Numbered from the stretch's first letter, positions 4,446 to 41,686 are shown. The stretch is DNA of 45,481 bases from an uncultured Gammaproteobacteria bacterium (GCA_964551255.1 CAZKAW010000001.1:31062-76542), one strand, 5' to 3'. Numbers and translations are program-made. Notes: generated by a model from the sequence alone, not told the origin.

Positions 4446-4448
4446 AAT

Positions 4449-10871: not shown

Positions 10872-10931
10872 TACTTAATTGTACTTCCCTAATCACCTCT
10901 CAGCAAGCTTTCAGTAAGAATTATGCAAATT

Positions 10932-22547: not shown

Positions 22548-23630
22548 TCAAATCTGTATTTTACACTTTTCTCCCACAAAAAGTGAGGTGGTAGCTCCCC
22601 TGCCGTTTTTGGAAGTTACCTCACTGTCCGTTCCAATCAAACTGTTATCCACCGGATGAATTTTAACATCCAAAATTTTTACCCCGCTCATTAAAACACT
22701 ATTTTTAACCGTACTGCCTACTATCTCACAATTATCAGCTACAGAGGTAAGAGAACCTACCTCTGAATCGGTAATTACCACATTATCTCCTATAACAGTT
22801 GGCCCCAGGATTTTGGAATTTACTATGGTGCATCTCCTGCCAATGGAAACCTCTCCTGCTATTTTACTATCCCGGCTTATCTCAGACTCCAGCTTACTTA
22901 CCAGCTTATTTTTTAGTAAATACGCATTAGCCTCAATCCAATCATCAAACTTACCCGGATCCAGCCAGGTACCTTTATATTCCACTACATCTACCCTATA
23001 TTTGTGGTCAATTAACCACTGAAAAGCAGTGGGAATTTCATACTCGCCGCGTCCGGAAGGCTTGATTGCATTTTCTCCTTTGAAACACTTAAAAAAGTTG
23101 CTGTCGGCAAAATATAAACCGGGAATGGCAAAATCATGAGGGGGATTTTCCGGCTTTTCTACATATTGAAGCAGTCTTCCTTCTTTGTCAAAAAACGGCA
23201 CCCCCAATCTTTTGTTTTCCCGGTGGTGAACCATGGTCACCATCGCATTTGGCTTTTTATCCATAAAATAATTTACAACCTTTTCAATTCCATCTGCAAA
23301 AATATTATCCCCGAGGTGAAAAACAAAGGGAGATCCGTTTAAAAACTGCTCGCAAACTTGGACAATGTTAGCAAGCCCGATTGGTTTCTCCTGCAAGACA
23401 TACTCAAAGTATACTCCCCATCTTGAACCGTCACCCAGCATATTTTTTACCTCCTCCAAACCCTGGGGATTATAGGTGATGGCAATATCTTTGATGCCGG
23501 CACGAGCCACTGTTTCAATGGGATAAAAAATTAAAGGTTTGTTGGCAACAGGAATGAAATGTTTGTTGGTGGAAAAAGTTAAGGGGCGCATTCTGGTTCC
23601 CCTTCCACCGGTTGGTATAATTGCCTTCAT
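22548..23630 (-). CDS. rfbA: Glucose-1-phosphate thymidylyltransferase, long form with C-terminal left-handed beta-helix
   Basis: 360 aa. MKAIIPTGGRGTRMRPLT (the G-x-G-T-R-x-x-P-x-T nucleotidyltransferase motif). The C-terminal ~110 aa has hexapeptide-like repeats (IGDNVVITDSEVGSLTSVADNCEIVGSTV). Confidence 0.8.
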   Translation of the reverse strand: MKAIIPTGGRGTRMRPLTFSTNKHFIPVANKPLIFYPIETVARAGIKDIAITYNPQGLEEVKNMLGDGSRWGVYFEYVLQEKPIGLANIVQVCEQFLNGSPFVFHLGDNIFADGIEKVVNYFMDKKPNAMVTMVHHRENKRLGVPFFDKEGRLLQYVEKPENPPHDFAIPGLYFADSNFFKCFKGENAIKPSGRGEYEIPTAFQWLIDHKYRVDVVEYKGTWLDPGKFDDWIEANAYLLKNKLVSKLESEISRDSKIAGEVSIGRRCTIVNSKILGPTVIGDNVVITDSEVGSLTSVADNCEIVGSTVKNSVLMSGVKILDVKIHPVDNSLIGTDSEVTSKNGRGATTSLFVGEKCKIQI

Positions 23631-23654
23631 TTTTTGGACGATTCTACCATTATA

Positions 23655-23816
23655 TTAAAAAATAACACCGAAAAGTAAGACCAGTACCAAAATAACTACT
23701 AAGAAGTATTCTACCAGAATTTCTAAAGTCAAACTTTTGTCTTTCTTATGATAAATTAAGGCCCAAACAAGATATATTAAACAGGCAATTACCAGTATAT
23801 ATACGGGTTCAATCAT
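23655..23816 (-). CDS. Small (53 aa) two-TM membrane protein, hypothetical
   Basis: Below the ORF-track size cutoff. MIEPVYILVIACLIYLVWALIYHKKDKSLTLEILVEYFLVVILVLVLLFGVIF. Its ATG overlaps the TGA of the upstream CAP-domain gene (ATGA), and it fills an otherwise empty 182-nt gap. Confidence 0.4.
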   Translation of the reverse strand: MIEPVYILVIACLIYLVWALIYHKKDKSLTLEILVEYFLVVILVLVLLFGVIF

Positions 23817-24691
23817 AAAATGCTTCCCGGACTGCTGAGTAACAAGCTGGCAGCAGCAATAGATAAAATGGACAGATGGGCAATATGATTGGAGCTAATT
23901 CTAAATACTCCCCTTCTATATAAAATTAAAAGGTCCAAACCTAAGAGCAGCCCCATAAACCCGATTAATGAAACTCCGGCGTATTTGGTAAAGATATAGG
24001 GATCAATTAAAGCATTACTGAGTTTGGTTGTTTCTGCCAAAGCCAGTTCCGGTTTAGTATTTAAATCCCGGGTGGAAACTGATAATTGTTTACCCTGGAC
24101 ATTAACAGCCGGTTTTCCCGCCAGTATGGCAGTGGTACCAAATTCCTGCACCACCAGAGTAGTTTGCTGGCCGTTTAACACTCCCTCTGCCACTGCTATA
24201 CCAATATCTTTATAGTTTGAATTTAACAAATTATCCCGGTGAGTTGGTGAATTCATCCAGGCAGTCACCACCTCATCGGAAGAATAAAAATTTTTGGCTA
24301 AATTTTCTCCGGCAAAAGTAAATCTGTAACCGGCCCCCAAGATAAAATCCCAGGGAGTTTTACCACTGGGGGCAAAGTGGGCCCAATAATTTTCCGCAAA
24401 CATATTCTCCGCCTTAAGTTGAGCAGCTTTATCCAAAGCCTCATTTTCTACCAAAACAGGTAAACCTTTTTTTGCTCTTTCTATATTGGTAAGATTAATC
24501 AGCTTCTTTTGGTCAATATTGGAACTGATTCCTAAAATTCCGGGTTTGGTGTAACTGACAATGGAAAATCCTACCTGAAGTAAAATAAAAAGCAGAACAT
24601 AAATAAGTAACCCTTCCCAGGAAATTAATTTGGCTTTTTGATGGGTATCTTTGTGTGGAATAAACCAATGATGTATTTTTTGCCAAGTCAC
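23813..24691 (-). CDS. Membrane-anchored CAP/SCP (YkwD-like) domain protein
   Basis: 292 aa. N-terminal TM, then NIERAKKGLPVL..AENYWAHF..GENLAK..WMNSPTHRDNLL..YKDIGIAV (CAP domain pattern), then two C-terminal TM helices. Confidence 0.7.
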   Translation of the reverse strand: MTWQKIHHWFIPHKDTHQKAKLISWEGLLIYVLLFILLQVGFSIVSYTKPGILGISSNIDQKKLINLTNIERAKKGLPVLVENEALDKAAQLKAENMFAENYWAHFAPSGKTPWDFILGAGYRFTFAGENLAKNFYSSDEVVTAWMNSPTHRDNLLNSNYKDIGIAVAEGVLNGQQTTLVVQEFGTTAILAGKPAVNVQGKQLSVSTRDLNTKPELALAETTKLSNALIDPYIFTKYAGVSLIGFMGLLLGLDLLILYRRGVFRISSNHIAHLSILSIAAASLLLSSPGSIL

Positions 24692-24695
24692 TCTA

Positions 24696-24983
24696 TTAGT
24701 ATACCAAATCTGTTTCTGCCTTCTTCCCGTTAACAGGAATTCCTAAAACAAACCCCAAAGCATTAGCCACAGACACTCCAACTCTTAGCCCTGTAAAGGA
24801 ACCCGGGCCGGTTTCTACTTCAATGGCATCCAGCGAATTTACATCAACCAATTTTTTAATCAGCGGCAGGAGAACCTGTGAGCCATATTTATTCTCTTTA
24901 CTCAAACTCTTTATAACTCTATTATCCTCTCTCAAACTGACAATAACCCCTCTTTGGTCTTTGGTATTGATATGAAGAATCAT
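24696..24983 (-). CDS. tsaB: Truncated TsaB-like protein (N-terminal subdomain only)
   Basis: 95 aa. GPGSFTGLRVGVSVANALG is the TsaB/YeaZ signature. The protein ends soon after it, so roughly the C-terminal half of a normal TsaB is absent. Confidence 0.6.
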   Translation of the reverse strand: MILHINTKDQRGVIVSLREDNRVIKSLSKENKYGSQVLLPLIKKLVDVNSLDAIEVETGPGSFTGLRVGVSVANALGFVLGIPVNGKKAETDLVY

Positions 24984-25519
24984 TGCTCTTCCCTGAAGAC
25001 AGAATAGAATTTGCCTTCCTCAATATTTTTAGCCACCTCATCAGGGGTAAAACTGCGGGCATTCATGCAGACATACACCCCGGCAGGCAATTTTTGCACC
25101 TGGGCAAAAGCATAACCTAAATTAAACGGCCCATCGGAAAAATCAAATCCCTTAATAGGAACCATAGAGCCTGTTAAAACAATCACCTGATCTCTTCTTT
25201 TTAAGTTTTCTTTTAAAAACCTGGCCGTATCCGGCATAGTATATGTCCCGTGGGTAATAATTATTTTATCTGCCTGTGACTGCTCAATTACCTTTAAAAC
25301 ATTTTTCCTGTCTTCATCTGTTATAGCCCGGGAATCTTTCATGCAGACTTCGCTAAAATTAATTTCTTCATAAAATTTTAAATTCCGGGAAATTTCGGAA
25401 AAATACTCCGGTAAAATGGAATGTTCAGACACCACCACAGTATCCTGCGCCCCATTCCAGACCGAATCAATTGTCCTCCCGGTCATAATAATGTGAATTT
25501 TTAGATTATTATTTTGCAT
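24980..25519 (-). CDS. Asparaginase/glutaminase N-terminal-domain-only protein, degenerate active-site motifs
   Basis: 179 aa. IIMTGRTIDS (canonical TGGTI), ITHGTYTMPDTA (canonical HGTDTM), VLTGSMVP. There is no C-terminal asparaginase domain. Confidence 0.6.
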   Translation of the reverse strand: MQNNNLKIHIIMTGRTIDSVWNGAQDTVVVSEHSILPEYFSEISRNLKFYEEINFSEVCMKDSRAITDEDRKNVLKVIEQSQADKIIITHGTYTMPDTARFLKENLKRRDQVIVLTGSMVPIKGFDFSDGPFNLGYAFAQVQKLPAGVYVCMNARSFTPDEVAKNIEEGKFYSVFREEQ

Positions 25520-25556
25520 TTTAAATATCTTTATGGTAGTATATGTTTACTAAACA
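25451..25556. repeat. Direct repeat copy A: 5-prime coding end, start codon and 5-prime UTR of the asparaginase-like gene
   Basis: Core 25454-25502 matches 26233-26281 at 43 of 49 positions (hand alignment). 25451-25477 matches 27028-27054 at 26 of 27. The 11-mer tttactaaaca at 25546-25556 recurs at 27054-27064. Confidence 0.85.
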
Positions 25557-25567
25557 TGGGGAAGATT

Positions 25568-26224
25568 CTATATGAGTCTTCCCTTTTTTATGTCTTTTTT
25601 ATCCTCCATTTTTAAAATATTCCTTAAATATTCAAAATCTTTAAAATTATTTCCTGCAAACTGACGTATTTCTCTTGCAGTTCTTGGCCCTCTTGCCAAA
25701 ATTATTACTTCTTTTTTATTTTTCCTAAGATATTTCAGTAATGGCAAAAAATCCCCATCACCCGAGAGAATCAAAACCTTATCATAATTATCTTTCTCCT
25801 TCATGAGATAAAAAGCCATTTCTACATCACAATTTGCTTTTCGCTCAGTGCTGCCATCAGGTTTGTAGTAAGTTTTAATAGGTTTTAAGAATAATTTATA
25901 CCCAAATTGGTTAAGCTTTAAATAAAATTTTATCCTTGAAAGGTGACGGGACAGCAAAATAAGTTTGGCTTCATCAAGTTTTTTACCTTCTTTACTGATG
26001 TAACCCTCCAAACGGTTTCTTAGCTTACTCAAAGGAACTGTCTCGTTTTTCAAATAATCATATTTATAGCCATGGGTCTCTACCCCAGCAAAATAATAAG
26101 CATCAGACACCTCATATTTTTCTTTTAGATATTTTATCAGCTTTGAGTAATCTATCTTCCAACCCAAACTTTTCTCACCACCATAGAAAAGATTAGAAGC
26201 GTCAATAAAAGCATAAGTTCTCAT
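25568..26224 (-). CDS. NYN-domain (LabA/DUF88-like, PIN-fold) putative ribonuclease
   Basis: 218 aa. Motifs YAFIDASNLFYG, KANCDVEMAFYLM, LILSGDGDFLPLLKYLR correspond to the conserved acidic positions of the NYN fold. Confidence 0.75.
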   Translation of the reverse strand: MRTYAFIDASNLFYGGEKSLGWKIDYSKLIKYLKEKYEVSDAYYFAGVETHGYKYDYLKNETVPLSKLRNRLEGYISKEGKKLDEAKLILLSRHLSRIKFYLKLNQFGYKLFLKPIKTYYKPDGSTERKANCDVEMAFYLMKEKDNYDKVLILSGDGDFLPLLKYLRKNKKEVIILARGPRTAREIRQFAGNNFKDFEYLRNILKMEDKKDIKKGRLI

Positions 26225-26286
26225 ATCTTAATATTCCAGACAGAATCACTTGTCCCCCCGGTCATAATAAAATGAATTTTACTCAT
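26221..26286 (-). pseudogene. 21-codon 5-prime remnant of an asparaginase-like gene (repeat copy B)
   Basis: Encodes MSKIHFIMTGGTSDSVWNIKI, compared with MQNNNLKIHIIMTGRTIDSVWNG in the intact gene. Its stop overlaps the NYN gene start (ATGA). It keeps an upstream GGAGTAGGAAGGGGAG Shine-Dalgarno-like stretch and a TATAAT (26326-26331, minus strand). Confidence 0.8.
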
Positions 26287-26343
26287 TTAAATATCTCCCC
26301 TTCCTACTCCTCATGCACTAGGCTCATTATACCCTATTTAGCC

Positions 26344-26754
26344 TCATTTTGCTTCAAAAGTTACATAATGAGTAGGTGAAAAATACACTTCGAATGTTTC
26401 CAAAAATAAATGCCTTCCTAAAAGCGGTGGAACATTATCTCTATCCAAAAATCCAACTGGAATTTCTCTTTCCCATATTCCTAATTTAGCTTTAATTCTT
26501 CTTAAAAAATGAACTTTCTCTTCACCGCCAATTCCAGCTGTTTTAAAAACCTGACAGTCTTTTTTTAAATCTATACCCAGTCGATAAGAGAAATATCTAG
26601 GCAAAAGGGTATAGTCTGCACCACTATCAACTATCATCCAAGTTTCATACCAACGTTTTTTGCTCTTGGAATAAAAAAATACTCTTGCAACAGGTCTATA
26701 AATTGTGCCTAATATGGGAGAATTAGATTTCTCAAACTGAAAAGTTAAAGCCAT
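26344..26754 (-). CDS. Retropepsin-like (clan AA) aspartic protease
   Basis: 136 aa. MIVDSGADYTLLP contains the D-S-G-A catalytic motif. The C-terminal PPLLGRHLFLETFEVYF matches the usual LLG..L..F tail of single-domain retropepsin-like proteins. Confidence 0.7.
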   Translation of the reverse strand: MALTFQFEKSNSPILGTIYRPVARVFFYSKSKKRWYETWMIVDSGADYTLLPRYFSYRLGIDLKKDCQVFKTAGIGGEEKVHFLRRIKAKLGIWEREIPVGFLDRDNVPPLLGRHLFLETFEVYFSPTHYVTFEAK

Positions 26755-26957
26755 AATATCAGCGTATCGGCTTTGGGGATATAAGTAATTGCGGGTGTAT
26801 CATTGGGAAATTTCTGTTCTAAACGATCTAAAAGTTTGTTAGCAGATTCGCCGGTCCTAGCAGTATATACTTGATTCTTAATCACTATTATATGTTTCCC
26901 CTTATACTTAGGATTTCCCATAATTTGAATCATAGTTTGTTTAGAGGATTTTTTCAT
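26745..26957 (-). CDS. Small partner protein (DUF5678-like by recall), overlapping the protease gene by 10 nt
   Basis: 70 aa. KYKGKHIIVIKNQVYTARTGESANKLLDRLEQKFPNDTPAITYIPKADTLILWL. The family assignment is from memory only. Confidence 0.45.
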   Translation of the reverse strand: MKKSSKQTMIQIMGNPKYKGKHIIVIKNQVYTARTGESANKLLDRLEQKFPNDTPAITYIPKADTLILWL

Positions 26958-27027
26958 AGATGTATTTTAACATATTTCTACTATGGTATGCAGGGAATGT
27001 ATTTCACATTTTGCAGTAAAATTCTCC

Positions 27028-27064
27028 CCCATTCCAGACAGAATCAATTGTCCTTTACTAAACA
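27028..27064. repeat. Direct repeat copy C: internally deleted remnant of the asparaginase-like 5-prime end
   Basis: 27028-27054 equals 25451-25477 apart from 1 mismatch and would encode RTIDSVWNG. It is joined directly to the 11-mer tttactaaaca, which lies 68 nt further away in copy A. It forms the last codons and stop of the wHTH ORF. Confidence 0.8.
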
Positions 27065-27292
27065 CCAGTGATTACTCGTACCTTTATTTAGTACTTTAAT
27101 CAAACCTTCATCTCTCAATCTATACAGGATTTGAGTGAATCGAGGCCTATTTAAATTCAATCCGTACAGCAAATTAACTCTTCGCTGAACCTCTTGTGAT
27201 GATAAGCTATCAGAATAATTTTCAAAAATACTCATCACTATCGCTTTTAATTCCGTAAATTCTTTTTGATTTATTTGGTGCGAAAAACGCAA
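27044..27292 (-). CDS. Small winged-helix-like DNA-binding protein, hypothetical
   Basis: 82 aa. SSQEVQRRVNLLYGLNLNRPRFTQILYRLRDEGLIKVL looks like a wHTH recognition helix plus wing. The ORF-track start is TTG (27290-27292) and is uncertain. Confidence 0.4.
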   Translation of the reverse strand: MRFSHQINQKEFTELKAIVMSIFENYSDSLSSQEVQRRVNLLYGLNLNRPRFTQILYRLRDEGLIKVLNKGTSNHWCLVKDN

Positions 27293-27345
27293 TGAAGAAA
27301 AATAGCAAGAATCCCAAAGACTAAAATTTCTCCCATAGGCGTTGG

Positions 27346-27774
27346 TTAATTTTTCTGATAGGGATTTTTAATGGAATGGATTTGCAGAAACTGTTCCGCA
27401 GTTAGGATTTTGATATTTTTAAATTTTTTTAAATCCAATAAATCCTTATCCCCGGTAATAATATAATCACAGTTTCCCTCTACCGCTGCTTCTATCACCC
27501 TATTATCATCTGGATCTCTTGATACGTTAATTGTTCTACTGGGATAAACCAATTCAAAAGTATTCTTTATCTCTTCCTCTATTTCTAATATTTCAGCTTG
27601 TGAAACACCAAACTTCTTCCTCAAAATATCTAAAAATTCACTTATTAAAACTGCAGATGTAATACCGTGAATTTTTTCTGAAACAATTAGTTTAAAAACG
27701 TTTTCTGGTTTACCTCCAAATACATATGCTGAGATTAGAACATTGGAGTCCAGCACTATGCGGAGACTATTCAT
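27346..27774 (-). CDS. PIN-domain toxin (VapC-like, TIGR00305-type)
   Basis: 142 aa. RIVLDSNVLISAYVFGG, ..DDNRVIEAA.., YIITGDKDLL supply the conserved acidic residues of the PIN fold. Confidence 0.8.
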   Translation of the reverse strand: MNSLRIVLDSNVLISAYVFGGKPENVFKLIVSEKIHGITSAVLISEFLDILRKKFGVSQAEILEIEEEIKNTFELVYPSRTINVSRDPDDNRVIEAAVEGNCDYIITGDKDLLDLKKFKNIKILTAEQFLQIHSIKNPYQKN

Positions 27775-27787
27775 GGACTAACTGTGT

Positions 27788-28030
27788 TTATTTACCGTGT
27801 CTGTATTCACTAACAATTTTGTTCACATCTTCTTCGCTTTTGATACCTAATTTTTTACCATACTTTTTACCCATCTTTAAAATCTGATCCCACTTCTCCA
27901 TCCTGGCCAAGTAAACACGCAATGCTTCTCTAATAAATTCGCTTCTATTGCGGTATTCATTCTTAGCTACCTGATCTACCCTCTTAACTAAATCTTTTGG
28001 TAAGGCTATATTAAAAGTTTGTGTTTGCAT
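27788..28030 (-). CDS. Ribbon-helix-helix (CopG/MetJ-type) antitoxin
   Basis: 80 aa. [36 protein letters not shown] is a typical RHH N-terminus. GAGGA Shine-Dalgarno (28039-28043, minus strand) 8 nt before the ATG. Lies directly upstream of the PIN gene. Confidence 0.8.
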
Positions 28031-28051
28031 ACTTCGATTCCTCAGTACAAG

Positions 28052-28064
28052 TACAATGATTGTA
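28052..28064. promoter_or_regulatory. Candidate RHH operator: perfect palindrome TACAA-tga-TTGTA within a cluster of GTACAA / TTGTAT repeats
   Basis: GTACAA at 28045-28050 and 28051-28056. TTGTATAT at 28060-28067 and 28071-28078. TTGTGT at 28080-28085. The palindrome overlaps the -10 of the minus-strand promoter. Confidence 0.45.
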
Positions 28065-28088
28065 TATAACTTGTATATGTTGTGTCAA
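28059..28088 (-). promoter_or_regulatory. Sigma-70-like promoter for the RHH-PIN operon
   Basis: On the minus strand: TTGACA (28083-28088), an 18-nt spacer, then TACAAT (28059-28064). The predicted start near 28052 gives a ~22-nt leader carrying the GAGGA Shine-Dalgarno. Confidence 0.5.
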
Positions 28089-28100
28089 GTAGGATATAAT
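28071..28100 (+). promoter_or_regulatory. Sigma-70-like promoter for prfB; -10 ends 6 nt before the ATG (candidate leaderless mRNA)
   Basis: TTGTAT (28071-28076), an 18-nt spacer, then TATAAT (28095-28100), with the ATG at 28107. It overlaps the divergent RHH promoter face to face. Confidence 0.4.
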
Positions 28101-28106
28101 TTCCGC

Positions 28107-29183
28107 ATGGAAGAAATACAAAATAAGTTATACAGCTTAAAAGACAGGTTTGAAAAAGTATCCCGGTCAATAGACCAGGATAAATTGCGCGGGGAAATCA
28201 GGGAGCTTGAAACTCAAACTATGAAAGAAGGTTTTTGGAATGATCCTAGTCAGTCTAGCGCTATCAGCAAACAGCTTTCAGAAAAACAAAAGACATTGGA
28301 AAGAATAGAGAATCTGGAATCAAGAATTAAGGATGCGCTGGAAATGACTGCAGAACCGGCAATGAAGGAAGACCTCAAAAAGGAAGTAAAAGAATTAGAA
28401 AAAATTTTAGACCAGCTGGAGCTTAAACTGTTTTTATCTAATCCTCATGATGAATCTGAAGCAATTTTATCTGTTCACTCGGGAGCCGGAGGAGTAGAGG
28501 CCATGGATTGGGCTCAAATGTTAGTCCGAATGTATCAAAGATATTTTGATCGCCAAGGGTGGAAATATGAAATAACCGATGAGAATCCAGGCGAGGAAGC
28601 AGGCATAAAAACAGTCTCTATGATTATTCACGAGCCGTATGCTTTTGGGTATTTAAAAGGTGAAAGAGGAACACACAGACTGGTAAGACAATCCCCTTTT
28701 AATGCAGATAATTTACGCCAAACCTCTTTTGCTTTAGTTGAGGTTTTACCTGTCATTAATCCGGCTGAAGTTGAATTAGGTGAGGCAGACATTGAATTTG
28801 AAGCCTTCAGGTCAGGAGGGGCAGGAGGACAAAATGTTAATAAAGTCTCTACAGCAGTCAGGCTGAAGCATCTACCCACCGGGATAACAGTTACCTGTCA
28901 AACGGAAAGGTCACAACTGCAAAACAGGGAAAATGCCCTAAAATTACTCAGGGCAAAAATCTGGGCTCTCAGACAAGCTCAGGGTGAAAAACTAAAACAG
29001 GAATTGAAGGAGGGAGTCACTCAGGCTTCCTGGGGAACACAAATCAGGTCTTATGTTTTGCACCCTTACCATATGGTCAAGGATTTAAGGACTAATGTAG
29101 AAACTTCTAATACCGATGCTGTTTTGAATGGAGATTTAGCAGAATTTATTGAGGCGGAGTTAAAAAGTTTATCTTCGGGGTAG
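28107..29183 (+). CDS. prfB: Peptide chain release factor 2
   Basis: [18 protein letters not shown].., the SPF tripeptide (RQSPFNA) and the GGQ motif ([12 protein letters not shown]). It is a single uninterrupted frame. The 17 extra N-terminal codons in the ORF track lie upstream of the predicted promoter. Confidence 0.9.
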
Positions 29184-29220
29184 ACAAATTACTCATTTTA
29201 TTGTTAATATTAGTAGGCCC

Positions 29221-29682
29221 ATGGATACTAAAGCCATCACGGAAGATAATCCAACTTTTTCTTCCAGTCAACTTGTCAAACGTTTTATCACTCCTGATAA
29301 CCCTAAGAAACTTCTTTTAACGGTAGTAATTGTTTCCGTAGTTTTAGGGACACTTACCGGTTATATTCTTGCCAACAAAAGCGGCGGGTTGGCAACCAGC
29401 GGACTTGGTATTCCTGCCAAAAATGCCCAGTCTGACACCCGTACCTTTAGAGATTTTGCGGAAGGAGTCATCAAAGTAAAACCCGAACCGTCCGACCCGG
29501 AATCATATAATGAGGGAACCCACCTGTTGCAGCGCCAGGGTGCGGTGCCGGTAGCTCTAACTTCATCTGTAGTCGATTTATCTCAATATGAAGGTAAAAA
29601 AGTTAAGGTTTTCGGTGAAACCCAAAAAGCTTTAAAAGAAGGCTGGCTGATGGATGTAGGTAAAGTTGAGGAAATTAGATAA
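29221..29682 (+). CDS. Hypothetical single-pass membrane-anchored protein
   Basis: 153 aa. One TM helix (LLLTVVIVSVVLGTLTGYILA) followed by a ~100-aa extracytoplasmic domain. No family recognised. Confidence 0.4.
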   Translation: MDTKAITEDNPTFSSSQLVKRFITPDNPKKLLLTVVIVSVVLGTLTGYILANKSGGLATSGLGIPAKNAQSDTRTFRDFAEGVIKVKPEPSDPESYNEGTHLLQRQGAVPVALTSSVVDLSQYEGKKVKVFGETQKALKEGWLMDVGKVEEIR

Positions 29683-29694
29683 AATAAATGGCTC

Positions 29695-30369
29695 ATGATT
29701 CTTTTCGACTCCGTCACTAAAAAATTTGGTTCTATCTTGGCCTTGGAAAATATTTCCCTGGAAGTCAAACAGGGAGAGTTTGTATTTATTGTCGGTCCTT
29801 CAGGTGCCGGCAAATCCACCTTACTCAGAATCTTAACCCGGGAGGTATTACCTACTTCCGGCAAAGTTTTGATCGGAGAAAAGGATATTATTAGATTGAA
29901 GGATAAGGATATTCCCGGTTTAAGAAGGAAGGTGGGGGTGGTTTTCCAGGATTTTAAGCTGCTGGATGACCGGACTGTTTTTGAACAGGTGGCTTTGGCT
30001 TTGGAAGTTTTAGGCAAAAAGGATGAAGAAATTACAAAAACCGTTGAGCATATTTTAAAGCTGGTGGAAATTTGGGATAAAAGAAATCTTTTTCCCAGGC
30101 AACTGTCCGGAGGCGAAGCTCAAAGGACCGCCATTGCCAGAGCTGCTGCTGGCAAACCCGACGTGCTTTTGGCAGATGAACCAACCGGAGATTTGGATCC
30201 TAAAACAGCCTGGGGAGTAGTACAACTTTTAAATGAAATTAACTCCTGGGGAACTACCATCCTCATGGCCACCCACAACCAGGAAATAGTTAATACCTTA
30301 AAAAGAAGAGTGGTGGTTTTAAAAAGCGGTAAGATAACAAAAGATACTAAGGAAGGCAAATATGAGTAG
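29695..30369 (+). CDS. ftsE: Cell division ABC transporter ATP-binding protein FtsE
   Basis: 224 aa. Walker A GPSGAGKST, signature LSGGEAQR, Walker B LLADEPTGDLD. Overlaps ftsX. Confidence 0.85.
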   Translation: MILFDSVTKKFGSILALENISLEVKQGEFVFIVGPSGAGKSTLLRILTREVLPTSGKVLIGEKDIIRLKDKDIPGLRRKVGVVFQDFKLLDDRTVFEQVALALEVLGKKDEEITKTVEHILKLVEIWDKRNLFPRQLSGGEAQRTAIARAAAGKPDVLLADEPTGDLDPKTAWGVVQLLNEINSWGTTILMATHNQEIVNTLKRRVVVLKSGKITKDTKEGKYE

Positions 30370-34061: not shown

Positions 34062-35585
34062 CTATTTTTCTCTTTTCAATTCCACTTCGATTGGACCAAC
34101 CATTTGTTTACTAATAAATTCCAAGTTGACAAACCCACCTTCCCAGCCCGAACGGGTTTCATTACGATCCGGTTCTTTTATCAGAAAAACTAAGTTAGAA
34201 TTTTCTCTTTTTTTAGAAGACTCCGGCGTCTGGGAAAAATACTGTTTATTTGAAATAATCTGCGGCTTATTGGGAGCATAAGCATAATCCAAAGGTAAAT
34301 AGCCAAAGTTTCTCAGTCCGTACCACCAAATTAAATATTGATAAGGATAATCATAAACAGAAGGAAGATAAGCATAAACTTTAAAATTTTGTCCTTTGGC
34401 ATATTTGTAAACATAATCTATAGCCGCAATTTCATTTTTATAAGCAGACGGGTTCATATTTGGGGTATTCCTGTCATAAAGAAAGAACTTAAAAATATTA
34501 AAAAGGGAAAAGCTAAAAATAGAAACTGCCAAAATAAGTGAAATTACTTTCCCAGCCCAATTAAAATCCCAAAGTTTTTTTAAAGTAAATCCCGCCAGGA
34601 TAACAGAAGCTGCCATAGGCCCGCCCAAATGCCAAGGGTTAACCGTAACCGGCAAAATCAAAAAACCCAAAAAGGGAACAAAAATGTAACAAAGAGAAAC
34701 TACAACCGCCGCGTCTTTTTTAATATCTTTAAAAAATTTTAAAAAAACAGGTATGGAAAAGGCTGAAATTAAAACAGCCAGTAATTTCCTGTTTAGGATA
34801 GTTGGTACAAAAGTATCAAAAAAACTTGATGTGACAACTTGAAGACGGTAACTAACATCAAAGGGTTTAACTTCCCTTTGCAGGTGAGCCATCAGCGACT
34901 TTGAGATTAAAAACCCGTGTCTCAGCTCAAAAATAACTTGAGGTAAAAGATAAAGAAGGTAAAATAATAACCCTATCCAAAAGCTTGCTTTTTTAAGAGG
35001 CAGTTCCTTTTTAAAAATTACAAAACTAAAAAAAATAATCAGCGGGATAAAAACCGCAAAATTCATTTCCAAATTTAAAAAAATTCCTCCAAGTAAAAAA
35101 GTAAGTATGGCAAAAACTGTTTTATTTGTTTTTAGATATTGACTGAGAAAATATATAAAAAGAGGGGTTAAAAGGGTAATAGGGTTGGGACTAAAAATAT
35201 ATACCGTAGACAAACCAATATAGTTTGAGGCTATCCAAAGAAAACCTATTGGAAAGGTTAGCCACTTGCTCCAACCGGAAACAATTTTTAATAAAAAATA
35301 TCCGCCAACTGCCCAAAAAATAATTTGTAAAACAAGCGGGGCAAAGGGGTCTCCACCGCTGACAATAAATGGGATTGCCAAAATATAATACCAGGCTGGT
35401 CCATTAAACACTCCCTCTATAGCAGTGCCCGCTCCAATCAAACGCGGCTTTTTTAAAACCACCATTTCTCTTACATCCACCCAATCTCTGGCGCTGTCTA
35501 TATGAAAAAGAAAATTACCGTTGGAAACCATAATTAGTTTATAGACAATTCCCAAAAGAAGAATAAACAATATGGATTTGTTCAT
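34062..35585 (-). CDS. Polytopic membrane protein, putative GT-C-like glycosyltransferase (family A, member 1)
   Basis: 507 aa. HIDSARDWVDVREMV..LIGAGTAIEGVFNGPAWYY and FELRHGF motifs, plus a C-terminal soluble domain. Confidence 0.5.
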   Translation of the reverse strand: MNKSILFILLLGIVYKLIMVSNGNFLFHIDSARDWVDVREMVVLKKPRLIGAGTAIEGVFNGPAWYYILAIPFIVSGGDPFAPLVLQIIFWAVGGYFLLKIVSGWSKWLTFPIGFLWIASNYIGLSTVYIFSPNPITLLTPLFIYFLSQYLKTNKTVFAILTFLLGGIFLNLEMNFAVFIPLIIFFSFVIFKKELPLKKASFWIGLLFYLLYLLPQVIFELRHGFLISKSLMAHLQREVKPFDVSYRLQVVTSSFFDTFVPTILNRKLLAVLISAFSIPVFLKFFKDIKKDAAVVVSLCYIFVPFLGFLILPVTVNPWHLGGPMAASVILAGFTLKKLWDFNWAGKVISLILAVSIFSFSLFNIFKFFLYDRNTPNMNPSAYKNEIAAIDYVYKYAKGQNFKVYAYLPSVYDYPYQYLIWWYGLRNFGYLPLDYAYAPNKPQIISNKQYFSQTPESSKKRENSNLVFLIKEPDRNETRSGWEGGFVNLEFISKQMVGPIEVELKREK

Positions 35586-36316
35586 CTGCCGCCTTTCTTC
35601 CAGGAGACAGCAGAAAGAAAAGGATAAAACATATCTTCTTGCTCATCGATATCTAGAATATGACTCTCATTATGGCTAGTAAATTTTAAATCAGGTATAC
35701 CGGAAATTATGGCAATCGGTTTACCCTCAGCTCCTTCTCCCATTTCCAACACCGCAGCAGTTGCCAGACTGTCAGGTAAATTAGAAGTCTCCATTTTAAA
35801 TTCTCTCCCGAATAAATCAGGTGTTCCTCTATAATCTTTTAGAGGTTTAAAGCCGAAATACCCGATTGCTATCCCCACCACCCCTCTTCTTAAAGGAATT
35901 AACCTTGAATCGGTAATAACTATCCCCAAATTTTTAATATTAAATTTTTCTCTTAAAAATTTCCAGATATTTCCGGCTGATTTTTGCGGGTCTTTTGGCC
36001 AAAGTATGTAATACCCTGCCCCGTTACTTTCGTCAATCCCGGAGGATGCCACCAGAATATTATTTTTGATGGTGTGCATTATCAGCCCGTCAGGCGCGGT
36101 TTCTCTTGGTAAATATTTGTCCGCTTCTTTTATAGCCAATTTATCTTTATCGGGAAATTTCGAAATAGCAAGACACCGGCCTTCCCCAATTGATACCACT
36201 TTTGAAGTAATTGCCAATACCGAATTTTCTTTTAAATCTTTAATTTCCGAGAGTAACTGCCAAAGGTCATCTTTCGGCGGTAAAAATTTCCTGGTTTTGA
36301 TTGCTTTGACTATCAT
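35582..36316 (-). CDS. CofE-like (F420-0:gamma-glutamyl ligase family) protein
   Basis: 244 aa. ITSKVVSIGEGR, SSGIDESN, VITDSRLIPLRRGVVGIAIGYFG, AAVLEMGEGAEGKPIAII parallel the CofE motifs as I recall them. Confidence 0.6.
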   Translation of the reverse strand: MIVKAIKTRKFLPPKDDLWQLLSEIKDLKENSVLAITSKVVSIGEGRCLAISKFPDKDKLAIKEADKYLPRETAPDGLIMHTIKNNILVASSGIDESNGAGYYILWPKDPQKSAGNIWKFLREKFNIKNLGIVITDSRLIPLRRGVVGIAIGYFGFKPLKDYRGTPDLFGREFKMETSNLPDSLATAAVLEMGEGAEGKPIAIISGIPDLKFTSHNESHILDIDEQEDMFYPFLSAVSWKKGGR

Positions 36317-36335
36317 CTCAGTTGATAGTTTAGCA

Positions 36336-36341
36336 TATAAT
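36336..36341 (+). promoter_or_regulatory. Consensus TATAAT -10 box 7 nt upstream of the ATG at 36349; candidate leaderless start
   Basis: TATAAT at 36336-36341, then taaacag, then ATG. No Shine-Dalgarno and no convincing -35. Confidence 0.3.
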
Positions 36342-36348
36342 TAAACAG

Positions 36349-37836
36349 ATGATTCCCTATTTTCAAAAAAGGCCCCACCTCATAATTTTGGGACTGATTC
36401 TTTTAACAGGTCTATTTTTTCGCTCTTTCCAGGTAATAGAAAGGTTTGAATTTGCCCATGACGGTGATTTATATTCCTGGATAGTCAAAGATATTTTAGT
36501 AAACGGCCACTTCCGTTTAATCGGTCAACTTACTTCCGCTCCGGGAATTTTTATTGGACCTCTATTTTATTATTTACTTGTTCCTTTTTTTCTTATTACA
36601 GGCATGGAACCGGTGGGAGTAGTTATTTTAGCAATACTTACCGGCCTTCTGGCTATCTTCAGTTATTATTTTGTTTTATCAAAACTTTTTAGAAAAGAGG
36701 TTGGCCTGATAGCGGCATTTTTATACGCGGTGCTTCTTGCAACCGCGGCTTCCGACCGCTGGGTGGTACCGACCATCACTACCTCCCTTTGGGCTATTTG
36801 GTATTTTTACAGTATTTTAATGATAAGCAGAGGAAGTTTTTCCGTTCTTCCAATTTTGGGGGTTTTAATTGGACTTATTTGGCATGTTCACATCGCTATA
36901 ATTCCTGCCTTAACCGCCATACCGGTAGCCCTTATGCTATCCAGCAAAGTTCCCTCTTTTAAACAGACTGTAAAATTTATTCTTGCCCTCTTTATAGTCT
37001 CCTTACCTTTAATTATTTTTGAGTTAAGACATAATTTTTTACAAACATCAGCATTTTTGAATAATTTTTTTGTTTACCGGGAAGGCCCAACGGGTTTGTA
37101 TAAACTTCAGTTAGTAACGGAAATGATAACAAAAAATATTAATGCTTTATTTTTTACTCCTCAGTCATTTAATTTTACGAACAATTTTTTCTTTGTGTTA
37201 ATAATACTTTTGTCCGCATTAGCAGCAGCAAAAGCAGACCTTATTTCTTTTAAACAGGTTTTCACTTTATATGCCTGGATTTTTGGGGTAATATTATTTT
37301 TTTTCCTTTCATCTTCGCCTATTTCCGAATATTATTTTATTAATATTCACGTAATATTTATTGCCATCATCAGCTTACTTCTCTATCTGCTGTTTAGATC
37401 CAGCCTGTTGGGAAAAGTAGCAGTCTTTTTGTTATTAAGTTTACTTCTTATAAAAAATGTTAACTTTCTTATCACTCAGGATTTTTACCACAAAGGTTAT
37501 TTGGAAAAAAAGAAGGTGGTAGAGTTTATTAGTGAGGATGCCCAAAGAAAAGGTTATCCCTGTATTGGCATAAGTTATATAACTTCACCGGGAGAAAATG
37601 TGGGATTTCGCTATCTTCTTTATTTAAAAAAACTACACTTGGTTCATCCTTCTTTAAACGTTCCTGTTTATAATATTGTCATCCCTGACGAGTTAGCATT
37701 GGAAGAAGTCAAACAAAAATTTGGCCATATTGGCATTATCCCTCCTGTTAATATTCCTGCCAAGGAAGTTATTCAAACAAGTTGTAAAATCCCTAACACC
37801 AATATAACTGATTCCATGTTTGGGTATGTGGAATAA
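36349..37836 (+). CDS. Polytopic membrane protein, putative GT-C-like glycosyltransferase (family B, member 1)
   Basis: 495 aa. FAHDGDLYSWIVKDI..LIGQLTSAPGIFIGPLFYY, FELRHNF, and a C-terminal GYPCIGISY..GFRYLLY domain. Confidence 0.5.
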   Translation: MIPYFQKRPHLIILGLILLTGLFFRSFQVIERFEFAHDGDLYSWIVKDILVNGHFRLIGQLTSAPGIFIGPLFYYLLVPFFLITGMEPVGVVILAILTGLLAIFSYYFVLSKLFRKEVGLIAAFLYAVLLATAASDRWVVPTITTSLWAIWYFYSILMISRGSFSVLPILGVLIGLIWHVHIAIIPALTAIPVALMLSSKVPSFKQTVKFILALFIVSLPLIIFELRHNFLQTSAFLNNFFVYREGPTGLYKLQLVTEMITKNINALFFTPQSFNFTNNFFFVLIILLSALAAAKADLISFKQVFTLYAWIFGVILFFFLSSSPISEYYFINIHVIFIAIISLLLYLLFRSSLLGKVAVFLLLSLLLIKNVNFLITQDFYHKGYLEKKKVVEFISEDAQRKGYPCIGISYITSPGENVGFRYLLYLKKLHLVHPSLNVPVYNIVIPDELALEEVKQKFGHIGIIPPVNIPAKEVIQTSCKIPNTNITDSMFGYVE

Positions 37837-37837
37837 C

Positions 37838-41676: not shown

Positions 41677-41686
41677 CTTAATTAAT

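What the first reader, a model, noticed from the sequence alone, without database searches (positions are those of the whole stretch)
25451..27064. Three direct copies of the 5-prime end of the asparaginase-like gene bracket two small accessory cassettes: an integration-hotspot signature without an integrase
Copy A (25451-25556) is the real 5-prime end plus UTR of gene 24980-25519. Copy B (26233-26296) matches the core at 43 of 49 positions, keeps its own ATG, Shine-Dalgarno and -10, and then diverges after 18 codons. Copy C (27028-27064) matches 26 of 27 core positions and is joined to an 11-mer (tttactaaaca) that lies 68 nt further away in copy A, so it is an internally deleted old copy. The NYN gene lies exactly between B and A. 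The retropepsin pair lies exactly between C and B. The wHTH ORF runs into C. This pattern fits serial site-specific insertion at the 5-prime end of one gene. Each incoming element would bring a replacement 5-prime end (attP mimic) and leave the old one behind as attL. No recombinase is encoded in the window, so the mobilising activity would act in trans or be unknown.
Basis: seen in the sequence. Interest (0 to 1): 0.8.

Follow-up and report, generated by a model that had tools for sequence, protein, structure and literature searches.

The report
Displaced gene starts mark stacked cassettes
Three copies of the start of one housekeeping gene are real; they look like scars left each time DNA from a related strain, carrying a small accessory gene plus its own version of that gene start, was added in front of the gene without removing the old start, and no dedicated integrase was found.

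Summary
A 23-nt core occurs three times in direct orientation (25454, 26233, 27031), with none expected by chance. An independent assembly reproduces the locus with 1 mismatch in 6172 nt.

The site lies between prfB and an asparaginase-domain gene. It is a variable hotspot in related candidate-phyla-radiation (Microgenomates-like) genomes: empty, AbiE, NYN or unknown genes.

Leftover gene-end copies recur:
- two relatives carry leftover copies of this gene's 5' end;
- a distant homologue carries a leftover 3' end next to a BrnT/BrnA pair;
- the same NYN unit sits at atpC with a leftover atpC start.

Each copy in the window matches a junction found intact elsewhere:
- B carries a 7-codon AbiEii C-terminal relic;
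- A and C carry the NYN downstream flank.

In the 3'-end case the two copies differ almost only at synonymous sites.

Best reading: serial displacement of the gene's 5' end. Homologous recombination acts in the gene and a second joint forms inside the resident 5' end. This resembles Rhs, CdiA and T6SS displacement arrays.

No recombinase, shared att core or conserved cargo-side arm was found. The joints differ by up to 15 nt but cluster beside the gene's two G4 runs, which is unexplained. A trans-acting site-specific system is therefore not excluded.

The parts
24980..25519 (-). Asparaginase N-terminal-domain gene (179 aa), first gene of the conserved asn-tsaB-CAP block. It carries a G15R change in the otherwise near-invariant TGGT motif.
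   Evidence: Pfam PF00710 E=3e-21. There are 1035 homologues, and the top hits (up to 89% identical) come from candidate-phyla-radiation genomes. Alignment A2 shows G15 is at least 90% conserved.
25450..25556 (-). Copy A. It holds the functional 5' end (codons 1-23) plus a 37-nt leader. The leader is the NYN unit's downstream flank and includes TGTTTAGTAAA (25546-25556).
   Evidence: The leader is near-identical in L174 and conserved in the atpC and ychF contexts.
25558..25584 (-). Conserved 11-bp-stem hairpin at the NYN 3' end (GGGAAGACTCATATAGAATCTTCCC). It belongs to the NYN unit.
   Evidence: Identical in L174, L175 and L176, with one loop change in L178/L187, where it lies after the stop codon.
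25568..26224 (-). NYN (LabA/DUF88-type) gene, the newest stacked cargo.
   Evidence: Pfam PF01936 E=2e-20. The listed homologues are 69-86% identical and include Daviesbacteria, Gottesmanbacteria and WWE3 entries. Found at asn (L174, L175), atpC (L176) and ychF (L178-L187).
26225..26232 (-). Joint between copy B and the NYN unit (sense: ...ctggaat|ATTAAGAT ATGA...).
   Evidence: L176 has the same left end (...ttaccc|ATTAAGAATACTAA ATGA).
26221..26296 (-). Copy B, a displaced 5' end. Its own ATG is at 26286-26284. It encodes a 21-codon leader ORF whose stop overlaps the NYN start, so it probably now serves as the expression platform for NYN.
26283..26303 (-). In-frame relic of an AbiEii C-terminus (EGEIFK*) directly upstream of, and overlapping, B's start codon.
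   Evidence: The pattern G[DE]IFK* occurs only here and at the L003 AbiEii C-terminus (EGDIFK*) in 3.3 million translated residues.
26344..26957 (-). DUF5678 (70 aa) plus retropepsin-like protease (136 aa) gene pair, the middle cargo.
   Evidence: Pfam PF18929 and PF13650. An 88% identical pair sits at an unrelated locus in L177.
27027..27064 (-). Copy C, the oldest relic. It holds asn codons 14-23 (27027-27053) joined directly to the NYN-flank 11-mer TGTTTAGTAAA (27054-27064). It has no start codon.
27044..27292 (-). wHTH-like ORF (82 aa). Its last 7 codons and stop are supplied by copy C, so its original 3' end was lost at a deletion joint.
   Evidence: weak MCM4_WHD hit; no homology to the NYN 3' end beyond the 11-mer.
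27346..28030 (-). RHH antitoxin plus PIN toxin pair, the cargo nearest prfB.
   Evidence: Pfam PF01402 and PF13470.
28056..29183 (+). prfB, the divergently oriented conserved gene that bounds the hotspot on the other side.
   Evidence: Synteny prfB | variable | asn-tsaB-CAP in L003, L005, L168, L170, L173 and L174 (L172 has no prfB on its contig).

Best explanation
The three copies are scars of serial displacement of the gene's 5' end, which can also be called allele stacking. It happened at a hotspot between prfB and the asparaginase-domain gene.

Related strains carry different small accessory modules directly upstream of this gene: AbiE, NYN, DUF5678 plus retropepsin, or nothing. DNA from such a strain enters the cell. 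On its right side it recombines homologously inside the gene. On its left side it is joined inside the resident gene's first ~20 codons rather than upstream of it. The left joint could form by an illegitimate join of a linear fragment. It could also form by single-crossover integration of a circularised fragment that carries a gene-start copy.

The result is: old gene start, then new cargo, then new gene start fused to the intact gene. This happened at least twice here.

Inferred order of events:
1. An NYN-asn junction existed first. Its relic is C.
2. A DUF5678/retropepsin piece arrived, attached to a relic AbiEii-asn junction. That junction is B.
3. An NYN-asn junction arrived again. That is A.
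4. Deletions then trimmed C and the gene upstream of it.

The stranded start B still has a -10 box, a ribosome-binding site and an ATG. Its short ORF ends on the NYN start codon, so it probably now drives NYN expression.

Shown: the repeats, the cargo variability, the recurrence in relatives, the allelic identity of each junction, and the absence of a recombinase in 45 kb. Inferred: DNA uptake from relatives, RecA-type recombination in the gene body, and the nature of the second joint.
For: 1. Hotspot with alternative contents in relatives: empty (L005), no cargo (L170), AbiE (L003, L172, L173), NYN alone (L174) and unknown genes (L168). GC is 0.31-0.35 inside the hotspot against about 0.40 in the flanks.

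2. Recurrence. L173 has leftover asn start | DUF6922-AbiEii | full asn. L175 has leftover start | inverted NYN | full asn. L116 has asn | BrnT-BrnA | a 106-nt leftover 3' end. L176 has leftover atpC start | NYN | atpC.

3. Each copy equals a junction type found intact elsewhere.
- B's leader is an AbiEii C-terminal relic, EGEIFK* against EGDIFK* in L003, unique in 3.3 M residues.
- The leader of A and its MQNN start match L174.
- The leftover in L173 keeps the native-type leader and MSDN-type start seen in L170 and L175.

4. The incoming DNA therefore included part of a donor's own gene, so the right-hand junction is homologous.

5. In L116 the two 3'-end copies differ at 9 of 106 nt. Eight differences are synonymous and one is conservative (P about 1e-4 under neutral decay, my calculation). 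Both copies therefore evolved as working gene ends in different lineages. In L176 the first six codons differ only synonymously.

6. No recombinase or transposase domain in the window. No tRNA. No Rfam family.

7. The joints are not identical and no att core is shared across targets.

8. Published models for structurally similar arrays invoke the same processes: Rhs tips via homologous recombination with circular intermediates (PMC2935791), T6SS effector-immunity arrays via homology-facilitated illegitimate recombination (PMC5361080), and TA islets spreading by recombination at flanking core genes (PMC13617665).
Against: 1. Four joints (B +66, C +70, L173 +63/66, L175 +55) fall within 16 nt of a 540-nt gene. 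B, C and L173 abut the first G4 run. The L116 joint abuts the homologue of the second G4 run. Random illegitimate joining does not predict this. A site-preferring nuclease or recombinase would.

2. The NYN unit has the same left end (ATTAAGA) at two different targets, in the window and in L176. That looks like a defined element terminus.

3. The core region of A, B and C shares a lineage variant (gtc tgg) and is not L174-like. Donors must therefore have been very close relatives that were not sampled, or the copies were homogenised. In-lineage duplication of the core cannot be excluded.

4. No donor carrying DUF5678/retropepsin next to asn was found.

5. Competence, recA and end-processing genes were not examined, because only 45 kb of the genome is available.
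Confidence: 0.55

Rival explanations
1. Small integrase-less cassettes are mobilised in trans by a site-specific recombinase or nuclease encoded elsewhere. It would act at a site in the conserved 5' region of the gene, near TGGAAT/GGGG. Each cassette would carry a mimic of the gene start as its attachment site. This is the first reader's model, comparable to cis-mobilisable elements, tycheposon satellites or integron cassettes.
For: - Joints cluster beside G4 runs.
- Spacing is cassette-sized: 779, 798 and 983 nt.
- The NYN left end is identical at two targets.
- Empty and differently filled sites exist.
- A polymorphic insertion lies 17 nt into ychF, just after a G4 run, and carries an excisionase-like HTH_17 gene.
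Against: - No recombinase in 45 kb.
- Joint positions differ by 3-15 nt, and in L174 the joint is at the start codon.
- The targets asn, atpC and ychF share no core beyond a G-run, and atpC has none.
- Cargo-side sequences at the joints share no motif.
- The 'attP mimics' are chromosomal junctions of relatives, including a relic of another cargo's coding end.
- A scan of viral contigs for the core motif and for the NYN hairpin found nothing.
Confidence: 0.2
2. In-lineage duplication without outside DNA. Segmental tandem duplications, or template switching during replication, would have one breakpoint in the gene's 5' end. Deletion and replacement of the duplicated cargo would follow.
For: - The A-B spacing (779 nt) equals one NYN unit plus the 5' end.
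- The B|NYN joint could be a duplication joint at AAT microhomology.
- The cores of A, B and C are nearly identical and share a lineage variant.
- C needs deletions under any model.
Against: - The leaders and N-terminal codons of A and B differ and match different alleles, AbiE-type against NYN-type.
- No tandem NYN or full-length paralogue occurs in any close relative.
- The synonymous-only divergence in L116 and the hotspot's alternative contents show that inter-lineage exchange occurs.
Confidence: 0.12
3. A transposon-like insertion that generates a long target-site duplication of about 50-90 nt by widely staggered cuts.
For: Direct repeats of target sequence flank each cargo. The NYN unit has recognisable ends, including a possible 7-nt inverted match TACTAAA/TTTAGTA in L176.
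Against: - Repeat lengths vary: 0 in L174, about 60 in L176, about 80 in the window and 106 at the 3' end in L116.
- The copies differ in leader and N-terminal codons in ways that match alleles of relatives.
- There is no transposase and no consistent terminal inverted repeats, and the window copy lacks the left motif.
- NYN at ychF has no duplication.
Confidence: 0.05
4. An assembly artefact, such as chimeric joining of strain variants at a shared repeat.
For: The repeats are short, and contig breaks occur near the locus in Logan assemblies: L002 starts inside NYN and L001 starts at prfB.
Against: Two independent assemblies agree with the window across the region, one over 6172 nt with 1 mismatch. 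Analogous structures occur in unrelated assemblies L173, L175, L176 and L116.
Confidence: 0.02

Closest known systems
C-terminal displacement arrays of rhs / cdiA / mafB polymorphic-toxin genes (Jackson et al. 2009, PMC2935791)
   Same: An intact gene lies next to a string of same-orientation fragments. Each fragment keeps a piece of the conserved gene segment and is attached to different cargo. The fragments vary in length. The displaced pieces have intact counterparts in other strains. The proposed mechanism is homologous recombination, possibly through small circles, with no integrase.
   Different: Here the 5' end is displaced, not the 3' end. The target is a housekeeping-type enzyme gene, not a toxin. 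The cargo consists of free-standing TA-like or nuclease/protease genes, not alternative gene tips. The organism is a candidate-phyla-radiation bacterium. The displaced start is reused as a leader for the cargo.
Sequential displacement of T6SS effector-immunity modules in Vibrio cholerae by homology-facilitated illegitimate recombination (Kirchberger et al. 2017, PMC5361080)
   Same: Incoming DNA is anchored by homology on one side and joined illegitimately on the other. Old material is pushed aside rather than replaced, so arrays build up. Most exchanges in relatives leave no scar.
   Different: There the anchor is upstream and whole immunity genes are retained. Here the anchor is the downstream gene body and only about 20 codons of the gene are retained. 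The joints here cluster next to G-runs.
Integrative elements that target a gene's 5' end and supply a replacement (own knowledge: SXT/R391 in prfC), and integrase-less satellites flanked by partial target copies (own knowledge: CIMEs in Streptococcus thermophilus; tycheposon cargo satellites at tRNA genes)
   Same: The target gene is restored by incoming sequence. The old end is left as a direct repeat. Tandem accretion occurs at one site, and some units lack a recombinase.
   Different: Those systems have a defined att core, a fixed crossover point and an identifiable integrase somewhere in the array or genome. None of these was found here, and the 'replacement ends' are ordinary chromosomal alleles.
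TA 'islets' between core genes, spread by homologous recombination at flanking core genes (Belot et al. 2026, PMC13617665)
   Same: Small TA-type modules sit in small high-turnover spots without linked mobile-element genes, and erosion and relics are frequent. The cargo here includes RHH-PIN, an AbiE relic and BrnTA (in L116).
   Different: That model gives clean replacement with no duplication of the flanking core gene. Here one joint falls inside the core gene and leaves a scar.
Integron cassette arrays
   Same: Short promoterless cassettes of about 0.8 kb are stacked in one orientation next to a fixed point. The newest lies nearest that point, and TA cassettes are common.
   Different: There is no IntI and no attI. 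The repeats are gene 5' ends, not attC imperfect palindromes with RYYYAAC/GTTRRRY cores. The NYN hairpin is part of that gene's unit in every context.

Membership tests
Site-specific integrative element (tyrosine/serine recombinase with attL/attR) | Recombinase gene in the element or nearby | tested here: not met
   No integrase, resolvase or transposase Pfam hit in any ORF of at least 100 aa in the 45-kb window, or in the small hotspot ORFs. The rest of the genome was not available.
Site-specific integrative element (tyrosine/serine recombinase with attL/attR) | One fixed crossover position and an identical core at every junction | tested here: not met
   Joints lie at +55 (L175), +63/66 (L173), +66 (B), +70 (C) and 0 (L174). 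Other targets (atpC, ychF) have unrelated sequence.
Site-specific integrative element (tyrosine/serine recombinase with attL/attR) | Conserved element-side arm (attP flank) shared by the different cargos | tested here: not met
   The cargo-side sequences next to the joints have no common motif: ATTAAGAT.., GAGAATTTTAC.., GATCGATAATC.., ATGTTATATTT.., CACAATCAAC...
Site-specific integrative element (tyrosine/serine recombinase with attL/attR) | Empty site in relatives | tested here: met
   L005 has 425 nt between prfB and asn. L170 has about 57 nt.
Site-specific integrative element (tyrosine/serine recombinase with attL/attR) | Excised circular form | not testable with these tools
   This needs raw reads of SRR12113430 and SRR12113384.
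Integron | IntI integrase, attI and attC sites (imperfect palindromes with RYYYAAC / GTTRRRY cores) between cassettes | tested here: not met
   No integrase. The inter-cassette repeats are coding 5' ends. TGTTTAGTAAACA deviates from the core consensus and occurs only with the NYN flank.
Displacement array of the Rhs / CdiA / T6SS-EI kind | Intact gene plus same-orientation dissociated fragments that keep a variable-length piece of the conserved segment | tested here: met
   A is intact. B has 18 codons plus a leader. C has 10 codons.
Displacement array of the Rhs / CdiA / T6SS-EI kind | Displaced pieces correspond to arrangements that are intact in other strains (lateral origin) | tested here: met
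   B matches the L003-type AbiEii-asn junction. A and C match the L174-type NYN-asn junction. The L116 copies differ at 8 synonymous and 1 conservative site.
Displacement array of the Rhs / CdiA / T6SS-EI kind | The target is a polymorphic toxin gene whose variable 3' tip is exchanged | tested here: not met
   The target is an asparaginase-domain gene (PF00710) and the 5' end is displaced. This works like the family but is not a member of it.
Homology-facilitated illegitimate recombination | One homologous anchor in the incoming DNA | tested here: met
   Incoming segments carry a donor-type asn start and leader contiguous with the gene.
Homology-facilitated illegitimate recombination | Short microhomology at the non-homologous joint | tested here: inconclusive
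   AAT or AATA is possible at the B|NYN joint by comparison with L174. GGGG is possible at the C joint. The true donor sequences are unknown.
Homology-facilitated illegitimate recombination | Natural competence and RecA in the host | not tested
   Only a 45-kb window is available, and no com or recA gene lies in it.
Transposable element with target-site duplication | Transposase, terminal inverted repeats and a fixed-length duplication identical at birth | tested here: not met
   No transposase. Duplication length ranges from 0 to 106 nt. The copies carry different allele-type leaders.
Type II toxin-antitoxin / small defence-type modules as cargo | Recognisable toxin and antitoxin domains in adjacent small genes | tested here: met
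   RHH+PIN in the window, DUF6922+AbiEii in L172/L173 and BrnT+BrnA in L116. NYN and DUF5678/retropepsin are not established TA systems.

The most novel reading that the evidence does not exclude
Candidate-phyla-radiation bacteria might possess an undescribed trans-acting integration system. It would be a nuclease or recombinase with a preference for G-run-adjacent sites in the ends of conserved genes. It would insert integrase-less mini-cassettes of about 0.8-1 kb (NYN, AbiE, BrnTA, retropepsin pairs). It would regenerate the target gene from a carried copy of its end, and the stranded old start would become the cassette's promoter and leader. This would be an integron-like gene-capture platform that uses housekeeping gene ends instead of attI/attC.
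Probability: 0.15. Interest if true: 0.8.

Novelty: new variant of a known kind. Interest (0 to 1): 0.5.

Why it matters
How tiny, integrase-poor candidate-phyla-radiation genomes gain and lose accessory and defence-type genes is poorly understood. This locus and its relatives give a readable record of the order of events, because each acquisition left a dated scar.

The record suggests that strain-to-strain recombination, with one joint falling inside a conserved gene, is enough to stack cassettes. It can also rewire their expression: the stranded gene start becomes the leader for the new gene.

Two features could make the mechanism testable in metagenomic read data. The joints cluster beside the gene's only two G4 runs. 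The same architecture appears at asn 5', asn 3' and atpC, with a further polymorphic insertion of unknown structure at the ychF 5' end.

If the clustering reflects a dedicated enzyme, that would be a new gene-capture system. If not, it documents for housekeeping genes a displacement process so far described mainly for polymorphic toxin loci.

Tried and rejected
1. Tandem paralogue decay. tblastn and nhmmer over 176 loci found no full-length second asn copy in any close relative. Only distant loci labelled archaeal/DPANN (L031, L036, L151, L154) have a second paralogue, about 39% identical.

2. Integron attC or a known RNA element. There was no Rfam hit in 23000-30000 at E up to 1, no tRNA, and the cores do not fit attC.

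3. TGTTTAGTAAA as a shared cassette-end recombination motif. It accompanies only the NYN flank. The wHTH 3' end has no other similarity to the NYN 3' end (score below the shuffle mean). Other occurrences are scattered chance matches.

4. The conserved AATACT upstream of NYN as an element end. It is more likely a -10-like TAAAAT/TATACT box, and too low in complexity to count as homology.

5. A mini-ORF MEEAIKALN.. near prfB, first suspected to be a displaced prfB start. It proved to be the 3' relic of an ACT-domain gene that is intact in L168 and L173.

6. A mosaic test of asn. Sliding identity to L003 and L174 gave no clear crossover point.

7. Viral or plasmid carriers. Scans of IMG/VR for the core motif, the NYN hairpin and NYN relatives all found nothing.

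8. L168's 282-aa gene and L173's 266-aa gene as a before/after pair. They are not homologous.

9. A generic screen for direct repeats 250-5000 nt apart in all loci. It returned many hits, but most are other things, such as pilin paralogues and intergenic repeats that I did not characterise. Only L116 was confirmed as the same architecture.


Full report
**1. Observation**

All genes of the region are on the minus strand. In the direction of transcription the order is:
- RHH (27788-28030) and PIN (27346-27774);
- a wHTH-like ORF (27044-27292);
- copy C;
- DUF5678 (26745-26957) and a retropepsin-like gene (26344-26754);
- copy B;
- NYN (25568-26224);
- copy A together with the asparaginase-domain gene (24980-25519), then tsaB-like and CAP genes.

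prfB diverges on the other side.

The 23-nt core ATTCCAGACMGAATCAMTTGTCC occurs three times, and no shuffle gave a match.
- A and B share 43/48 positions. They also share the start-codon context gatatttaa(a)ATG, and they differ by a 12-nt indel in the N-terminal codons.
- C shares 27/28 positions and is followed by the 11-mer that lies 68 nt further out in A.
- B has its own ATG, a purine-rich ribosome-binding tract and a TATAAT box. It encodes MSKIHFIMTGGTSDSVWNIKI*, and its stop overlaps the NYN start (ATGA).

An independent assembly, L001, matches 6172 nt with one mismatch. The structure is therefore real.

**2. Context**

- The window comes from a low-GC genome of the candidate phyla radiation, most likely Microgenomates-like. 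The homologues are labelled Levybacteria, Saccharimonadales and similar.
- GC falls to 0.31-0.35 between 25500 and 28100, against about 0.40 in the flanks.
- No ORF of at least 100 aa in the 45 kb has a recombinase or transposase domain. The window encodes glycosyltransferases, rhamnose synthesis enzymes, FtsEX, prfB, TsaE and SecA.
- There is no tRNA and no Rfam match in 23000-30000.

**3. The site is a hotspot**

Relatives keep the synteny prfB | variable | asn-tsaB-CAP. The variable part differs from one to the next:

| Locus | asn identity | Content of the variable part |
|---|---|---|
| L005 | 84% | 425 nt, no gene |
| L170 | 86% | about 57 nt; a YafQ-type toxin-antitoxin pair lies downstream of asn instead |
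| L003 | 89% | small ORF plus AbiEii; AbiEii stop 3 nt before the asn start |
| L172, L173 | 86% | DUF6922-AbiEii |
| L168 | 84% | three genes without clear function |
| L174 | 80% | NYN alone; the native leader runs straight into the NYN ATG |

The NYN-asn junction of L174 is nearly identical to the leader of copy A.

**4. The scars recur**

An nhmmer profile of the 5' block, searched over 176 loci, found extra copies only in the window (and its twin assembly L001), L173 and L175.

- **L173.** Native-type leader plus MLDNPLIHIIMTGGTIDSVW, then DUF6922-AbiEii, then the intact gene with a different start (MNLIH).
- **L175.** Native leader plus 19 codons with one frameshift, then an inverted NYN unit, then the intact gene.
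- **L116 (57% identical homologue).** A BrnT/BrnA pair lies between the gene and a 106-nt copy of its 3' end. The two copies differ at 9 positions, 8 of them synonymous and 1 conservative.
- **L176.** The NYN unit (81% identical) sits in front of atpC. Upstream lies a leftover atpC start, MAQLNL.., whose first six codons differ only synonymously. That leftover ORF again ends on the NYN ATG (ATGA).
- **L178-L187.** NYN (74% identical) lies between a PP2C gene and ychF without any duplication. The hairpin and the following ATGTTTAGTA-tatatacta-cat flank are conserved there, even though the hairpin lies after the stop codon. This shows that the leader of copy A belongs to the NYN unit.

**5. What each copy is**

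- **B.** The 21 nt that run into B's start codon encode EGEIFK*. They are codon-aligned with the AbiEii C-terminus of L003 (EGDIFK*). The pattern G[DE]IFK* occurs nowhere else in 3.3 million translated residues. B is therefore a relic of an AbiEii-asn junction. Most of AbiE has since been replaced by the DUF5678/retropepsin pair.
- **A.** An intact NYN-asn junction of the L174 type, including the MQNN start.
- **C.** A relic of an older NYN-asn junction. It has been cut down to the 11-mer of the NYN flank plus codons 14-23. The wHTH ORF is fused onto it.

The array therefore records three successive junction types: NYN-type, then AbiE-relic-type with retropepsin cargo, then NYN-type again. Both junction types exist intact in relatives.

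**6. Mechanism**

The incoming pieces carry a relative's own gene start contiguous with the gene. The junction on that side is therefore homologous.

The other joint lies inside the resident gene's first ~20 codons. This strands the old start upstream of the new cargo. It is the architecture of displacement arrays. The mechanisms proposed for those arrays are homologous recombination through small circles (Rhs; PMC2935791) and homology-facilitated illegitimate recombination (T6SS effector-immunity modules; PMC5361080).

TA islets without linked mobile-element genes are thought to spread by recombination at flanking core genes (PMC13617665). Scars such as those seen here would arise when one joint misses the flank.

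The synonymous-only divergence in L116, and partly in L176, shows that the paired copies evolved as working gene ends in different lineages.

I rate this explanation at 0.55. The steps of DNA uptake, RecA-type exchange and the chemistry of the second joint are inferred, not shown.

**7. What does not fit neatly**

- **Joint clustering.** The joints cluster at +55, +63/66, +66 and +70. The gene has only two G4 runs, at +67 and +439. B, C and L173 abut the first run. The L116 joint abuts the homologue of the second (|AGCTGGGG). The ychF insertion in L178 follows TTAGGGGCAGG|. By my rough, post-hoc estimate, 4 of 5 asn joints within 7 nt of a G4 run has a probability of about 1e-4.
- **Possible causes of the clustering.** These include a preference of illegitimate joining for GC-rich patches, Chi-like end processing, or a site-preferring enzyme. 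I cannot tell which applies.
- **NYN left end.** The left end of the NYN unit is ATTAAGA at both asn and atpC.
- **Core variant.** The core of A, B and C shares a lineage variant, gtc tgg, that is not L174-like. The donors must therefore have been close, unsampled relatives, or the copies were homogenised.

For these reasons I keep the trans-acting site-specific model at 0.2 and in-lineage duplication at 0.12.

**8. Comparison with known systems and novelty**

The locus works like Rhs, CdiA and T6SS displacement arrays, but it is not a member of those families. The target is a housekeeping-type enzyme gene, the 5' end is the part displaced, and the cargo consists of free-standing small modules.

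It fails the tests for a classical integrative element: no recombinase was found, there is no fixed core, and there is no conserved arm. It also fails the tests for an integron and for a transposon with target-site duplication.

I class it as a new variant of a known kind, with interest 0.5. It is a clear, recurrent and datable record of cassette stacking in a candidate-phyla-radiation genome, and it has an unexplained joint preference that could be tested in read data.

Noticed in passing
window 25474-25476 (codon 15 of gene 24980-25519): The functional copy A has AGG (Arg) where relatives and copy B have GGG (Gly), in the TGGT motif. G15 is at least 90% conserved in 36 homologues. The same change is present in the independent assemblies L001 and L002. 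The enzyme may be impaired in this strain.
   Followed up: partly
window 25558-25584; L174 1516-1540; L176 1097-1121; L178 2893-2917: The hairpin at the NYN 3' end is conserved at the nucleotide level. It is identical in four contexts and has one loop change in a fifth. This holds whether it overlaps the last codons or lies after the stop. It may be a regulatory or processing element of this NYN (RNase-fold) gene rather than a terminator or recombination site.
   Followed up: partly
L178 2955-2975 versus L187 873-893: An insertion polymorphism among contigs that carry a 100% identical NYN protein. DNA carrying an HTH_17 (excisionase-like) gene and unknown genes is inserted 17 nt into ychF, right after TTAGGGGCAGG. 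It leaves a 5-codon ychF start. The far end lies beyond the fetched locus.
   Followed up: partly
L116 3842-3947 and 4731-4836: A BrnT/BrnA toxin-antitoxin pair is flanked by a 106-nt direct repeat of the asn 3' end. The copies differ at 8 synonymous and 1 conservative site. This is the mirror image, at the 3' end, of the finding in the window.
   Followed up: yes
L005 7811-7853; L174 777-821; L168 6371-7021; L173 741-1052: An ACT-domain gene next to prfB is intact in L168 and L173. In L005 and L174 it is reduced to a 3' relic (..MEEAIKALN(S/T)YF..*). It is absent from the window. This is a further sign of frequent deletion in the hotspot.
   Followed up: partly
L020, L022, L105, L112, L117 (around the asn match): In a more distant clade (asn about 60% identical) the asn gene lies between tsaB and prfB in the opposite orientation relative to both neighbours. 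The gene itself has therefore been inverted or re-inserted at this position.
   Followed up: no
L170 1143-1696: In the relative whose prfB-asn spacer has no cargo, a 95-aa ORF plus a YafQ-type toxin is inserted between asn and tsaB. Small toxin-antitoxin modules therefore use both sides of this gene.
   Followed up: no
L177 1146-1236: Directly after the stop of a retropepsin gene that is 88% identical to the window's lies a fragment that reads like the C-terminus of DNA polymerase I (..LKLSVPVVVDLKVGPNWGEMKELVV*). This could be another stranded gene end next to this cargo.
   Followed up: no
window 1484-12401 and 34062-43228: There are many consecutive paralogous membrane-protein genes of about 500 aa (PMT_2 / PTPS_related / YfhO-like glycosyltransferase families) around a rhamnose-synthesis cluster. 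A 51-nt direct repeat (7537 and 9218) links two of them.
   Followed up: no
window 28056-28106: The mechanical prfB ORF probably starts too early. Homologues align only from residue 13-18 (MEEIQNK..), so the true start is likely near 28107. The prfB-RHH spacer would then be about 76 nt, and it holds the best promoter-like match in the region (TTGACA-18-TACAAT, minus strand).
   Followed up: no
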